Positions 19,505 through 25,980 of a stretch of 64,000 nt of DNA are shown one piece after another (the first letter of the stretch is position 1; the number at the start of each line of letters is the position of its first letter). Under the pieces are notes generated by a model that was given only the letters and a program-made list of their open reading frames with translations, ran no database searches and was not told where the DNA came from. Source of the stretch: the human T2T-CHM13v2.0 reference genome, Homo sapiens; assembly GCF_009914755.1 (NCBI RefSeq), contig NC_060927.1; one strand, given 5' to 3'. Position numbers and translations under genes: made by a program.

Positions 19505-20707
19505 ACAGCAGGTTACACATTTTTCTCAAGCTCATATGGAATGTTCACCAAGAAAGACCACATACTGGGCTAGAAAACATACCTTAAAAATGTAAATGTA
19601 TAAAAAATTCGTACAATGTCTCCTCTCAGACCGTAATAGAATTAAACTAAAAATCAATAACAGTAGCTAGAAAATCCTCAAATACTTGGAGATTAAATTA
19701 CACTCTTCTAAATAACACATGGATCAAAGAAAAAATCTCAAGTGAAATTGAAAAAGATCTTGTGGTGCTGGGATAATTGGTTATTCATATGCAGAAGAAT
19801 GAAGCTGGACCCTTCCCTATCACCATACACAAAAATTAAGTCACGACGGATTAAAGACTTAAATGTAAGACATGAAACAATAAAAATCCTAGGAAACACC
19901 CTATGAAAATATTTTATATGGAAATACCCCATAAAAACATAGGAAATACTCTTTTTAATACTGGCCTTGGCAAATAATTTATTACTATGTCCTCAAAGGC
20001 AATTGCAACGTAATCAAAAATTGACAAGTGGGACCTAATTAAACTAAAGAGCTTCTGCACAGCAAGATAAATGATCAAGGGCATAAACTTACAGAATGGG
20101 AGAAAATACTTGCAAAGTAAGTATCCAATAAATGTCTAAGATTCAGAATCTATAAGGAACTTAAATCAACAATCAAAAACATAACCCTGATAGGAAGTGG
20201 GCAAATGACATGAACAGACACTTTTCAAAAGAAGATATACGAGTGGCCAAAAAACATATGAAAAAATGCTCATCATCACTAATCACCAGAGAAATGCAAA
20301 TCAAAACCACAATGAGATACCATCTCACACCAGTAAGAATGGCTTTTGTTAAAAAGTAAAAAAATAACAGATGATGGCAAGGTTGTGGAGTAAAGGAAAC
20401 AGGTATACACTGTTGGTGGGAATGTAAATTAGTACAGGCATTGTGAAAAGCATTTTGGAGATTTCCCAAAGAAGGAAAAGCTGAACTCCATTTAACCCAG
20501 CAATCCCATTACTAGGTACATAACCAGAGGAAAATAAAGCATTCTGCCAAAAACACATATGCACCCATATGTTCACCACAGTATTATTCACAATAGCAAA
20601 GATATGAAGTCCACCCAGGTGCCCATTAATGGGAGACTGGGTAAAGAAAATGTGGTACATATATACCATGAAATACTCTGCAACCATGAAAAAGATGAAA
20701 TCATGGT

Positions 20708-20973
20708 GCACTTTGGGAGGCCGAGGTGGGCAGATCACGAGGTCAGGAGATCGAGACCATACTGGCTAACACGGTGAAACCCTGTCTCTACAAAAAATAC
20801 AAAAAAAAATTAGCTGGCCGTGGTGGCGGGTGCCTGTAGTCCCAGCTACTCGGGAGGCTGAGGCAGGAGAATGGCGTGAACCTGGGAGGCAGAGCTTGCA
20901 ATCAGCCGAGACCGCACCACTGCACTCCAGCCTGGGTGACAGAGTGAGACTCCATCTCAAAAAAAAAAAAAAA
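20708..20973 (+). mobile_element. AluY, 5'-truncated, without its own TSD
   Basis: Starts at gcactttgggagg; Y diagnostics present; A-tail 20959-20973 runs directly into the inverted L1. Confidence 0.95.
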
Positions 20974-22958
20974 GTCTCCCATTATTATTGTGTGGGAGTC
21001 TAAGTCTCTTTGTAGGTCACTCAGGACTTGCTTTATGAATCTGGGTGCTCCTGTATTGGGTGCATATATATTTAGGATAGTTAGCTCTTCTTGTTGAATT
21101 GATCCCTTTACCATTATGTAATGGCCTTCTTTGTCTCTTTTGATCTTTGTTGGTTTAAAGTCTGTTTTATCAGAGACTAGGATTGCAACCCCTGCCTTTT
21201 TTTTGTTTTCCATTTGCTTGGTAGATCTTCCTCCATCCCTTTATTTTGAGCCTATGTGTGTCTCTGCATGTGAGATGGGTTTCCTGAATACAGCACACTG
21301 ATGGGTCTTGACTCTTTATCCAACTTGCCAGTCTGTGTCTTTTAATTGGAGCATTTAGCCCATTTACATTTAAAGTTAATATTGTTATGTGTGTATTTGG
21401 TCCTGTCATTATGATGTTAGCTGGTTATTTTGCTCGTTAGTTGATGCAGTTTCTTCCTAGCCCTGATGGTCTTTACATTTTAGCATGTTTTTGCAGTGGC
21501 TGGTACCAGTTGTTCCTTTCCATGTTTAGTGCTTCCTTCAGGAGCTCTTTTAGGGCAGGCCTGGTGGTGACAAAATCTCTCAGCATTTGCTTGTCTGTAA
21601 AGGATTTTATTTCTCCTTCACTTATGAAGCTTAGTTTGGCTGGATATGAAATTCTGGGTTGAAAATTCTTTTCTTTAAGAATGTTGAATATTGGCCCCCA
21701 CTATCTTCTGGCTTGTAGAGTTTCTGTGGAGAGATCAGCTGTTAGTCTGATGGGCTTCCCTTTGTGGGTAACCCGACCTTTCTCTCTGGCTGCCCTTAAC
21801 ATTTTTTCCTTCATTTCAACTTTGGTGACTCTGACAATTATGTGTCTTGGAGTTGCTCTTCTCGAGGAGTATCTTTGTGCCGTTCTCTGTATTTCCTGAA
21901 TCTGAATGTTGGCTTGCCTTGCTAGATTGGGGAAGTTCTTCTGGATAATATCCTGCAGAGTGTTTTCCAACTTGGTTCCATTCTCCCTGTCACTTTCAGG
22001 TACACCAATCAGACGTAGATTTGGTATTTTCACATAGTCCCGTATTTCTTGGAGGCTTTGTTCGTTTCTTTCTATTCTTTTTTCTCTAAACTTCCCTTCT
22101 TGCTTCATTTCATTCATTTCATCTTCCATCACTGATACCCTTTCTTCCAGTTGATCGCATCAGCTCCTGAGGTTTCTGCATTCTTCACGTAGTTCTCAAG
22201 CCTTGGCTTTCAGCTCCATCAGCTCCTTTAAGGACTTCTCTGCGTTTGTTATTCAGTTATCCATTTGTCTATTTTTTTTTCACAGTTTTTAACTTCTTTG
22301 CCATTGGTTTGAATTTCCTCCTGTAGCTCAGAGTAGTTTGATCGTCTGAAGTCTTCTTCTCTCAGCTCGTCAAAGTCATTCTCCATCTAGCTTTGTTCCG
22401 TTGCTGGTGAGGAGCTGCGTTCCTTTGGAGGAGGAGAGGCGCTCTGATTTTTAGAGTTTCCAGTTTTTCTGCTCTGTTTTTTTGCCATCTTTGTGGTTTT
22501 ATCTACTTGTCGTCTTTGATGATGGTCACGTACAGAGGGGTTTTTGGTGTGGATGTCCTTTCTGTTAGTTTTCCTTCTAACGGACAGGACCCTCAGCTGC
22601 AGGTCTGTTGGAGTTGGAGTTTGCTAGAGGTCCACTCCAGACCCTGTTTGCCTGGGTATCAGCAGCGGTGGCTGCAGAACAGCGGTGGCTGTAGAACAGT
22701 GGATCTTGGTGAACTGCAAATGCTGCTGCCTGATCGTTCCTCTGGAAGTTTTGTCTCAGAGGAGTACCTGGCCATGTGAGGTGTCAGTCTGCCCCTACTG
22801 GGGGGTGCCTCCCAGTTAGGCTGCTCGGGGGTCAAGGACTCACTTGAGGAGGCAATCTGCCCGTTCTCAGATTTCCAGCTGCATGCTGGGAGAACCACTA
22901 GTCTCTTCAAAGCTGTCAGACAGGGAAATTTAAGTCTTCAGAGGTTACTGCTGTCTTT
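20974..22958 (-). mobile_element. Inverted 5' segment of L1PA3/L1PA4 (partial 5'UTR, disrupted ORF1, ORF2 endonuclease N-terminus)
   Basis: ORF1p peptide (..NLRLIGVPESDRENGTKLENTLQDIIQ..) and ORF2p start MTGPNTHITILTLNVNGLNAPIKRHRL on the minus strand. Confidence 0.96.
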
Positions 22959-24680: not shown

Positions 24681-24992
24681 GCAGCTTTTCAAAAAAGTAA
24701 ACAAAAACAACAACAACAAAAAATTCAGACAGATCCAACTTCATGAAGACGTCCCTGAGCCTCATGGTTAGAACTCATGGTTAGAACTAACCACTCCCTC
24801 CAGTGCACAACCTTTAGAGCACACTTTTATTGTGGACATATGCAATTTTTCATGTATGCCAGCCTCCTCTGATAATAGTAAGCTCTTCAGAATCAGGATT
24901 ATGTCTTGTCTATGTCTATATCCTCAACTGGGCACAGTGCTTGAAATTCAGCACATATTCAATAAATATATGTTGAATTGAAAAAAAAAAAA
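24681..24992 (+). other. L1 3' transduction (non-L1 sequence with AATAAA and poly(A))
   Basis: About 300 bp of non-L1 DNA between the L1 tail and the 3' TSD. AATAAA at 24961-66, with poly(A) starting 14 nt later at 24981. Confidence 0.85.
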
Positions 24993-25980
24993 GAATGAAA
25001 TCATGGCTTTTGCAGCAACATGGATGCAGCTGGAAACCACCATCTTAAGTGAACTAACAGCAACAGAAAACCAAATACCAAATGTTCTCAGTTATAAGTG
25101 GGAGCTAAACACTGGGTATACATGAACATACATATAAGAACAATAAACACTGGAGAATACAAGAGGGAGGAGGACTGGGGGCACAAGAATTGAAGACTAT
25201 TGGGTACTATGCTCAGTACCTGGGTGATGGATTCAAATACTCCAAACCTTGGCATCATGCAATATACCTTTAACAAACCTGTATGTGTGCCCACTGATCC
25301 TAAAATAATACTTAAACAAAAATAAAATTTGTATATATTATATGATTTTATCTCAATAAAAGGTGGTTTTAAATTAAAAAAAGATTTTGAACTAAACAAA
25401 AACAGAAATACAACATCATAATTTGTAGAATATAGTCAAAGCTACGCCTAGAGGAAAATTTATGTCATTGAGTGCATATAAAAGCAAAAAGAAGGAGCCA
25501 AAACCAATAATCTAAGCTTTTTGCTTCAGAAAACTGGAAAAATAGAGCAAATCAGATCCAAATAAAAGGAATAAAAAAAATCAACAGTGAAAATGAATAA
25601 ACTTGAAAACTGCAAGTCAACAAAGGAAATCAGCAAAAGCTGATTCTTTGAAAAGAGCAATAAAATCAATCATCTCTAGCTAGGCTACTTAAGAAAAAAA
25701 GAGAAGACACAAATAACTAGTATCAGAAATTAAAAAGGAAACATCATTACAGACCCTATGTATATTAAAAGATAATAAAAAAATTATGAACAATGCTATG
25801 TCTACAAATTTGAGAACCTAGATGAAATGGATCAATTCCTTGAAAGATATAATCTGCCAAAAGTTATACAAAAATAAGTAGATAACACAAATAGTCTTAC
25901 ATATAATAGATACATTGAATCAATGATTAATAATTTTCCCAAACAGAAAGCACCAGGTCCAGATGGGTTCAATGGTGAAT

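What the first reader, a model, noticed from the sequence alone, without database searches (positions are those of the whole stretch)
20689..25006. Composite retro-insertion within one TSD pair: AluY + inverted L1 5' part + L1 3' part + 3' transduction
Seen: the host L1 breaks after AAAAAGATGAAATCATGG (20689-20706) and resumes with AAAAAGAATGAAATCATGG (24988-25006). Both copies share the non-consensus ..TCATGG, so this looks like a true TSD with one indel. Between them lie four modules: 5'-truncated AluY (+), L1PA3/4 5'UTR-ORF1-EN (-), L1 ORF2-3'UTR (+), and ~300 bp of non-L1 DNA with poly(A). Known: L1 5' inversions arise by twin priming, 3' transductions by read-through of the weak L1 poly(A) signal, and chimeras by template switching. 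Inference: all three signatures inside one TSD pair make this an unusually complete record of a complex integration event.
Basis: partly seen in the sequence, partly recalled or inferred. Interest (0 to 1): 0.8.

Follow-up and report, generated by a model that had tools for sequence, protein, structure and literature searches.

The report
Nested Alu and inverted L1 insertion
An old L1 in a CNTN3 intron is split by a real target-site duplication that encloses an Alu, a 5'-inverted L1 and a short piece copied from chromosome 1; this is most likely two ordinary retrotransposon insertions, one into the tail of the other, not one exceptional event.

Summary
The host L1 is split, and 18/19 nt of it are duplicated at 20689-20706 and 24988-25006. 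Between the copies lie:
- an Alu(+) starting at Alu nt 34, with an A15 tail
- an L1(-) piece (5'UTR-ORF1-EN, 20975-22958)
- an L1(+) piece (ORF2 3' part to 3'UTR, 22961-24679)
- about 300 nt of non-L1 DNA ending in AATAAA and A12

The two L1 pieces are equally close (94-95%) to the same full-length copies. The last 270 nt derive from chr1:147.115 Mb (3.9% substitutions), and homology stops exactly at the poly(A) site. No young L1 lies within 10 kb of that chr1 site.

The one-event reading is not required. The simplest history has two steps:
1. A 5'-truncated AluY-like element inserted and made the visible TSD.
2. A twin-primed L1 with a 3' transduced tail then inserted into the Alu A-tail. The oligo(A) end primed on the UUU of the L1 RNA, and the L1's own TSD is hidden in the A-runs.

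Divergence does not separate the ages of Alu and L1, and primate orthologues could not be consulted. A single event therefore stays possible (about 0.2). All components are well-known phenomena, so interest is low.

The parts
19763..20706 (+). Left arm of the old host L1 (ORF2 3' part)
   Evidence: 72% identical to nt 5094-6013 of full-length copy L017; direct repeats D1-D5 with the inserted L1
20689..20706 (.). Left copy of the target-site duplication (18 nt, AAAAAGATGAAATCATGG)
   Evidence: (D16)
20707..20959 (+). 5'-truncated Alu body. It starts at Alu nt 34; T at 20707 is a filler or a mutated nt 33. The Y-type assignment is recalled, not tested.
   Evidence: Aligned to the full-length Alu at 16203. 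Best genome matches 93-94%. 11 private differences in 241 compared positions.
20960..20974 (+). A15: the Alu A-tail. In the nested reading it is also the left copy of the L1's own oligo(A) TSD. The last 3 A overlap L1 (TTT of GGGAGACTTT).
20975..22958 (-). Inverted L1 piece: 5'UTR from nt ~578, ORF1, and the start of ORF2 (EN) to nt ~2559/2563 of a 6.17-kb copy. ORFs are broken.
   Evidence: Pfam PF17489, PF02994, PF17490 and PF03372 on the minus strand. 93.4-95.3% to the 9 copies that cover most of it (a tenth aligns over 218 nt only).
22959..22960 (.). 2-nt filler (AT) at the inversion junction, with no microhomology
   Evidence: Comparison with 8 and 6 full-length copies on either side
22961..24679 (+). 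Non-inverted L1 piece: ORF2 from nt ~4431 to the 3'UTR, own AATAAA at 24665 and A7. It has a 38-nt deletion in the 3'UTR at 24640/24641.
   Evidence: 94.1-95.4% to 12 L1 copies; the deletion
24680..24711 (+). A-rich stretch of unknown origin between the L1 tail and the chr1-derived DNA
   Evidence: No significant match to the sequence upstream of the chr1 parent; 88 of 500 shuffles reach the score
24712..24982 (+). Segment derived from G000:C1:147115425-147115684 (chr1), with AATAAA at 24961-24966 and a 13-nt tandem duplication at 24761-24786
   Evidence: 248 of 273 columns identical, 10 mismatches, 15 gap columns. Homology ends at GAATTGAA, where the poly(A) starts.
24981..24992 (+). A12: poly(A) of the retrotransposed RNA, merged with the A-run that starts the right TSD copy
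24988..25006 (.). Right copy of the target-site duplication (19 nt, AAAAAGAATGAAATCATGG)
25007..25128 (+). Right arm of the old host L1 (aligned part)
   Evidence: 74% identical to L017 from nt 5992 onward; D6 and D7

Best explanation
Two successive, ordinary L1-mediated insertions nested in an old intronic L1.

Step 1 (inferred). An AluY-like RNA was reverse-transcribed at a nick in the host L1 (top strand CATG/AAAAAG). The copy was 5'-truncated at Alu nt 34 and produced the 18/19-nt TSD seen today.

Step 2 (inferred). At a time that divergence cannot separate from step 1, an L1 RNA of the L1PA3-5 age class integrated into the Alu A-tail. This RNA had read through its own poly(A) signal and ended at an AATAAA about 300 nt downstream, in a chr1-like source locus.
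- The bottom-strand T-run primed on the poly(A) and gave the non-inverted cDNA: the transduced DNA plus L1 nt ~4431 to the end.
- The top-strand oligo(A) 3' end annealed to the UUU of GGGAGACUUUAAC in the same RNA and primed the inverted cDNA (nt ~2563 back to ~578). This is twin priming.
- The two cDNAs were joined with a 2-nt filler, losing 1.87 kb of L1.
- The L1's own TSD consists of A residues only and is merged into the A15 and A12 runs.

Shown directly: the anatomy, the TSD, the common age class of the two L1 pieces, and the chr1 parent. Inferred: the order of events, the priming steps, and the existence of a source L1 that is no longer at the parent locus.
For: (1) Real TSD of host L1 sequence.

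(2) At the Alu/L1 junction (J1) the L1 sense sequence runs ...GGGAGACTTT directly into the T-run. All 8 full-length copies checked continue TTTAACACC, so there is a 3-nt A/T overlap, as expected for priming by an oligo(A) end. Only 24 T-runs of 3 or more exist in nt 1-4431 of a full-length copy.

(3) The inverted piece lacks any L1 3' end or poly(T), so it cannot be an independent insertion.

(4) The six copies chosen for similarity to the inverted piece are 94.1-95.4% identical to the plus piece. That range matches the copies chosen for the plus piece (94.8-95.2%), and the reverse comparison agrees. Own-branch divergence is 42/1946 versus 53/1672 (Fisher p = 0.06).

(5) The left A-run of 15 nt fits the usual TSD length (median 13, quartiles 10-15). 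Insertions cluster at Alu nt 260-310. 18.4% of germline L1 insertions carry 5' inversions (PMC12016303: section 8 read in full, plus passages from other sections).

(6) The 3' segment matches chr1 up to the base where the poly(A) begins, 16 nt after AATAAA, with 10 mismatches in 258 aligned bases. That fits the L1 age.

(7) No other locus in the assembly spans the host/Alu junction or the inversion junction among the candidates scored, so nothing suggests the composite was copied whole from elsewhere.
Against: (a) The Alu is not measurably older than the L1. Non-CpG private changes are 4/209 against 91/3578 (p = 0.82). This is what a single event predicts, and it forces the nested reading to place both insertions within a few million years.

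(b) The right A-run (12, of which 5 belong to the TSD) is shorter than the left one (15). In the nested reading it once held the L1 poly(A) plus a TSD copy, so strong shrinkage must be assumed.

(c) The gap between the start of the inverted cDNA and the end of the non-inverted cDNA is 1.87 kb, whereas 132 of 287 inverted insertions have these ends within 20 bp.

(d) An A15 primer chose a U3 tract although U6 and U7 tracts exist at nt 3217 and 2702.

(e) The same junction, poly(A)|GTCTCCCAYTAT, occurs at five other loci as the 3' junction of standard insertions into L1 DNA at TT/AAAG. J1 could therefore in principle come from Alu TPRT into L1 DNA.

(f) No source L1 lies at or within 10 kb of the chr1 parent.

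(g) The first nick, TTTTT/C, is not a canonical EN site.
Confidence: 0.65

Rival explanations
1. One integration event. Alu, inverted L1, non-inverted L1 and transduced DNA were laid down within one TSD pair. One route: an Alu RNA or Alu cDNA joined to the intermediate and its A-tail primed the inverted L1 cDNA. Another: Alu TPRT and L1 TPRT followed each other immediately at one lesion.
For: Only one TSD pair is visible. Alu and L1 are of indistinguishable age. Alu/LINE-1 chimeras bounded by one TSD are documented: 452 in all, including AluY with L1PA4-6 (PMC13174262, section 12 and Table S4).
Against: In the published chimeras the Alu sits next to a sense L1 3' segment; here it abuts an inverted piece. 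Simple template switching of the first cDNA cannot produce that. A sense Alu on the top strand ahead of the inverted cDNA needs an antisense template or an RNA primer, and neither is documented in what I read. Such chimeras became rare after the apes arose. The locus is not in Table S4, which has no chr3 row between 41.4 and 79.3 Mb; the pipeline may, however, not detect inverted cases.
Confidence: 0.2
2. The L1 came first and owns the TSD. An Alu later inserted by TPRT at the TT/AAAG site inside the inverted L1 piece, and deleted the 1.9 kb between that site and the left TSD copy (a retrotransposition-mediated deletion).
For: J1 is identical to the 3' junction of four standard Alu insertions and one other retrocopy at this L1 site. 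The Alu is 5'-truncated and has no TSD of its own L1 flank. An inverted piece that originally reached nt ~4430 would make the twin-priming gap typical.
Against: The deletion would have to end within a base or two of the TSD/L1 border, leaving an intact TSD that is already long at 18/19 nt. That is a coincidence of about 1 in 1000. Target-site deletions accompany only 2.3% of germline Alu insertions.
Confidence: 0.05
3. The Alu and the antisense L1 were already joined in the template. Either the source L1 carried an antisense Alu at the TT/AAAG site and was mobilised in trans, or reverse transcriptase switched from L1 RNA to a Pol II transcript that contained an Alu-in-L1 locus.
For: The junction has the full signature of a standard Alu insertion at an EN site used repeatedly elsewhere. 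A 2-nt filler at 22959-22960 would suit a template jump.
Against: The four other junction-bearing Alu loci are only 78-92% identical to 20707-22958 where the L1 part is long enough to judge, so none is the donor. The inverted piece is as young as the plus piece and of the same class, which a random donor L1 would rarely be. An L1 with an Alu in its EN domain needs trans-mobilisation, which is rare (recalled).
Confidence: 0.04
4. About the 3' module only: it is not a read-through (3' transduction) of a source L1. Instead, reverse transcriptase began on a polyadenylated chr1 transcript and then switched template to the 3' end of an L1 RNA.
For: The chr1 parent has no young L1 at or within 10 kb. 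24680-24711 matches neither partner.
Against: Both routes give the same product. About 25% of L1 insertions carry transductions (abstract of PMC13009371, seen in a search listing), whereas L1-to-mRNA template-switch chimeras are far rarer (recalled). Source elements are often lost or unfixed (recalled). The chr1 segment begins at the A-rich end of an old L1, a good target for a since-lost source L1.
Confidence: 0.12

Closest known systems
L1 5' inversion by twin priming (Ostertag and Kazazian 2001, recalled; statistics from PMC12016303)
   Same: An upstream L1 piece is inverted next to a non-inverted 3' piece of the same L1 class. There is a short A/T overlap at the internal priming site and a filler at the junction of the two cDNAs.
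   Different: 1.87 kb of L1 is missing between the two cDNAs. The primer is read as an Alu A-tail rather than unique target DNA, so the event's own TSD cannot be seen.
L1 3' transduction
   Same: Non-L1 DNA follows the L1's own AATAAA and short A-run. It ends 16 nt after a second AATAAA in a poly(A) inside the flanking duplication. A unique parent locus exists, and its homology stops at the cleavage site.
   Different: No L1 sits upstream of the parent sequence in this assembly. About 32 nt between the L1 tail and the parent-derived DNA are unexplained.
Insertion of a retrotransposon into the A-tail of a resident Alu (nested insertion)
   Same: The Alu body and A-run lie on the left, an A-run and the Alu's TSD on the right, and the newcomer in between without a recognisable TSD of its own. 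Alu nt 260-310 is a preferred target.
   Different: The order of events is inferred, not shown. Alu and L1 are of indistinguishable age.
Alu/LINE-1 chimeric insertions (Law and Burns 2026, PMC13174262)
   Same: An Alu lies 5' of L1 sequence, in the same orientation as the L1 3' end, and the whole is bounded by one TSD of at least 7 nt.
   Different: An inverted L1 piece lies between the Alu and the L1 3' segment. The Alu is 5'-truncated. Contemporaneous arrival is untested. The locus is not in their Table S4.
Alu retrotransposition-mediated deletion (recalled)
   Same: A 5'-truncated Alu without its own TSD, with its 3' junction at an EN consensus site.
   Different: It would require the deletion to stop exactly at the older TSD.

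Membership tests
Target-primed retrotransposition insertion with TSD | Direct duplication of target DNA flanking the insert, with the target contiguous once one copy and the insert are removed | tested here: met
   18/19-nt duplication; the host L1 arms overlap by about 18-20 nt in L1 coordinates
Target-primed retrotransposition insertion with TSD | Poly(A) at the 3' end next to the TSD, and an EN-type nick site (TTTT/A and variants) | tested here: inconclusive
   A12 is present. The site reads TTTTT/C on the bottom strand: the T-run is canonical but the base after the nick is not.
L1 5' inversion (twin priming) | An inverted upstream L1 piece joined to a non-inverted 3' piece, both from one L1 RNA | tested here: met
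   The pieces map to nt 578-2559 and 4431-end of the same copies at equal identity. Divergence is not significantly different.
L1 5' inversion (twin priming) | Start of the inverted cDNA close to the end of the non-inverted cDNA (small gap or overlap) | tested here: not met
   The gap is 1.87 kb. The feature holds within 20 bp for only 132 of 287 published cases, so it is typical rather than obligatory.
L1 5' inversion (twin priming) | Complementarity between the top-strand 3' end and the internal priming site | tested here: met
   3-nt AAA/UUU overlap if the primer is the Alu A-tail
L1 3' transduction | Unique DNA between the L1 poly(A) signal and a second poly(A) signal plus tail, inside the TSD | tested here: met
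   AATAAA at 24665 and at 24961, then A12
L1 3' transduction | The parent locus carries a source L1 immediately upstream of the transduced DNA | tested here: not met
   The parent is at G000:C1:147115425-147115684. Upstream lies an old L1 3' end, with no young L1 within 10 kb either side.
Alu/LINE-1 chimera (single event) | Alu directly adjacent to the 5' end of a sense L1 3' segment within one TSD | tested here: not met
   The Alu abuts the inverted piece, and the sense 3' segment lies 2 kb further on
Alu/LINE-1 chimera (single event) | Alu and L1 arrive together in a multi-species alignment | not testable with these tools
   No primate genomes are held. Divergence-based ages are indistinguishable.
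Nested insertion into an Alu A-tail | An intermediate state (Alu with tail and TSD, no L1) in an outgroup or haplotype | not testable with these tools
   No paralogue with that state is in the assembly among the 40 of 6352 candidates scored

The most novel reading that the evidence does not exclude
All four modules entered in one integration event. In it, an Alu RNA (or its nascent cDNA) supplied the oligo(A) 3' end that primed the inverted L1 cDNA. That would be a twin-priming variant with an Alu as the second primer, combining an Alu/L1 chimera, a 5' inversion and a 3' transduction in a single TSD pair.
Probability: 0.15. Interest if true: 0.45.

Novelty: already known. Interest (0 to 1): 0.12.

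Why it matters
It matters little for biology. This is an old, broken, intronic repeat cluster with no sign of function.

Its use is methodological. A single visible TSD pair around several retroelements does not show a single event, because an element that lands in an A-tail hides its own TSD. Catalogues of chimeric insertions have to rule this out with outgroup alignments.

If outgroups showed only the empty and the full state, the locus would be a rare Alu-primed inversion and a modest addition to the known L1 chimera types.

Tried and rejected
- **Whole composite copied from elsewhere.** Genome searches with the full 4.5 kb and with each junction found no second locus spanning the host/Alu or the inversion junction. 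Only 40 candidates per search were scored, so this is a lower bound.
- **Homology of 24680-24711 to the sequence upstream of the chr1 parent.** Local score 9, reached by 88 of 500 shuffles, so not significant.
- **Dating the Alu against four Alus of the window and loci.** This gave 14/234, but the reference set was too small. It was replaced by 20 genome copies, giving 11/241. Those copies were chosen by similarity to this Alu's first 193 nt, which biases the figure slightly downward.
- **Subfamily naming with the subfamily-selective primers of PMC12432230.** The mismatch patterns were mixed (0-4 mismatches) and did not separate L1PA3, 4 or 5, either in the window piece or in nine reference copies. 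I can only say that own-branch divergence is 2.2-3.2% and the best pairwise identities about 95%.
- **The eight genome matches to A7+GTCTCCCAYTAT.** Two of them (L038, L040) are chance matches outside L1.
- **Not run.** RepeatMasker/Dfam and primate orthologues are not available here. No structure, protein-database or complex-prediction job was needed.
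Full report
**What is there.** The window is an intron of CNTN3; the gene is on the minus strand. An old L1 in plus orientation runs from about 19763 and is interrupted after 20706. Aligned to a full-length L1 copy fetched from the same assembly (L017), its left arm ends at copy position 6013. Its right arm, starting at 24984, resumes at 5992, so some 18-20 nt of host sequence occur twice. 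The two copies are AAAAAGATGAAATCATGG (20689-20706) and AAAAAGAATGAAATCATGG (24988-25006). The right copy aligns to the homologue without a gap, so the left one probably lost a base.

**The modules.**
- A T at 20707 is followed by an Alu from its nt 34 (20708-20959), as shown by alignment to the full-length Alu at 16203, and by A15 (20960-20974).
- From 20975 to 22958 lies L1 on the minus strand. Stop-to-stop frames there hit the Pfam ORF1 trimerisation, RBD-like and dsRBD-like domains and the beginning of the endonuclease domain. In nine L1 copies that cover most or all of it, the piece aligns to what is nt 578-2559 of L017, counted from that copy's 5' end.
- After a 2-nt filler (AT, 22959-22960), L1 continues on the plus strand from nt ~4431 to its 3' end (22961-24679). 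It carries a 38-nt deletion in the 3'UTR and its own AATAAA at 24665.
- Then come 24680-24980 of non-L1 DNA with AATAAA at 24961, and A12.
- The inversion junction is thus at 22958/22961, and 1.87 kb of L1 is missing between the two pieces.

**One L1 or two?** I fetched twelve L1 loci, six chosen as best matches to each piece. The six chosen for the inverted piece are 94.1-95.4% identical to the plus piece, the same range as those chosen for the plus piece (94.8-95.2%). The full-length ones chosen for the plus piece are 93.4-94.5% identical to the inverted piece. Differences from the majority of eight copies are 42/1946 and 53/1672 (Fisher p = 0.06). I could not name the subfamily: published subfamily-selective primers gave mixed patterns.

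**The 3' module.** A whole-assembly search found one parent, G000:C1:147115425-147115684. Of 273 alignment columns 248 are identical, with 10 mismatches and 15 gap columns, 13 of them a tandem duplication in the window. The homology ends at GAATTGAA, exactly where the window continues with poly(A) and chr1 continues with unrelated DNA. So a transcript of that sequence, cleaved 16 nt after AATAAA, was reverse-transcribed.
- At the parent locus the segment follows the A-rich 3' end of an old L1.
- No young L1 lies there or within 10 kb either side.
- The module therefore behaves like a 3' transduction whose source element is absent from this assembly. A template switch from a chr1 transcript to L1 RNA would give the same product and is kept as a minor rival.
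- Nucleotides 24680-24711 match neither partner (88 of 500 shuffles reach the score).

**One event or two?** The key junction is between the Alu tail and the inverted L1. In the L1 sense the window reads ...AATAATGGGAGACTTT followed by the T-run, while all eight full-length copies read ...GGGAGACTTTAACACC. The junction therefore has a 3-nt A/T overlap.

If the Alu was already in place, everything follows from textbook steps:
- The L1 endonuclease cut in the Alu tail, a preferred target (insertions cluster at Alu nt 260-310).
- The bottom-strand T-run primed on the poly(A).
- The top-strand oligo(A) end primed on the UUU of the L1 RNA and made the inverted cDNA.
- The L1's TSD is then oligo(A). 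The left A-run of 15 nt fits the usual TSD length (median 13, quartiles 10-15).
- The visible 18/19-nt TSD belongs to the earlier Alu insertion.

A one-event model must explain how a sense Alu came to lie on the top strand ahead of the inverted cDNA. Simple template switching of the first cDNA, the mechanism proposed for the 452 published Alu/LINE-1 chimeras, puts the Alu next to a sense L1 segment, not an inverted one. The locus is not in that catalogue: Table S4 has no chr3 row between 41.4 and 79.3 Mb. I assume here that hg38 and T2T coordinates of CNTN3 differ by far less than that interval.

**Evidence that cuts the other way.**
- The Alu is not measurably older than the L1. Against 20 close genomic Alus it has 11 private differences in 241 positions, 4/209 outside CpG sites, compared with 91/3578 for the L1 pieces (p = 0.82). 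Both insertions would have to fall within a few million years.
- The right A-run is shorter than the left one.
- The 1.87-kb gap is atypical: 132 of 287 inverted insertions have their cDNA ends within 20 bp.
- Longer U-runs were available in the RNA.
- The junction poly(A)|GTCTCCCAYTAT is not unique. An exact-pattern scan of the assembly gave eight hits: this locus, two chance matches outside L1, and five other L1 copies. Four of these five had also come up in the similarity search.
- In those five, an Alu (four cases) or a ~290-nt polyadenylated retrocopy (one case) sits in L1 DNA at TT/AAAG, flanked by the 15-16-nt TSD AAAGTCTCCCAYTAT(T), with L1 continuing on both sides.

So this L1 site is a recurrent endonuclease target, and the junction could have arisen by Alu insertion into L1 DNA. 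For this locus that would need one of two things:
- A deletion that stops within a base or two of the older TSD.
- A template in which Alu and antisense L1 were already joined. The other junction-bearing loci are only 78-92% identical where comparable, so none is a donor. A random donor L1 would also rarely be of the same young class as the plus piece.

I rate both well below the nested reading.

**Verdict.** My odds are about 0.65 for two nested events, 0.2 for a single event, and the rest for rearrangement or pre-joined templates.

Each component is long known and common: 18% of germline L1 insertions are inverted, and about a quarter carry transductions according to an abstract seen only in a search listing. 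The locus is ordinary. The decisive test, the orthologous site in other primates, could not be run with the tools at hand.

Noticed in passing
L030 2926-3225, L031 2876-3167, L032 3104-3219, L033 2848-3156, L036 ~1208-1505 (loci oriented as): Five independent standard insertions sit at exactly the same site of L1 ORF2: four Alus of different types, one of them 5'-truncated, and one ~290-nt polyadenylated retrocopy. The site is TT/AAAG, nt ~2563 of a 6.17-kb copy, inside the EN-coding region. The L1 copies are of different ages, and all carry the TSD AAAGTCTCCCAYTAT(T). It looks like a recurrent endonuclease hot spot with a fixed second-nick distance.
   Followed up: partly
L002 850-1512 (G000:C1:147114775-147115436): The chr1 parent of the transduced segment begins right at the A-rich 3' end of an old L1 in the same orientation. 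That is a plausible landing site for the missing source L1.
   Followed up: partly
window 24761-24786: A 13-nt tandem duplication (CTCATGGTTAGAA twice) in the chr1-derived segment, absent from the chr1 parent.
   Followed up: yes
window 24640/24641: A 38-nt deletion in the L1 3'UTR relative to other copies. In the one copy inspected (L017) it lies between two CACATG repeats, which suggests slippage.
   Followed up: partly
window 22663-22696: A 17-nt tandem repeat (CAGCGGTGGCTGCAGAA / ...TGTAGAA) in the 5'UTR part of the inverted L1 (repeat finder D18). I did not check whether it is private to this copy.
   Followed up: no
window 24680-24711: An A-rich stretch, TGCAGCTTTTCAAAAAAGTAAACAAAAACAAC, between the L1 tail and the chr1-derived DNA, with no identifiable origin. 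It could be the diverged flank or TSD of the lost source L1.
   Followed up: partly
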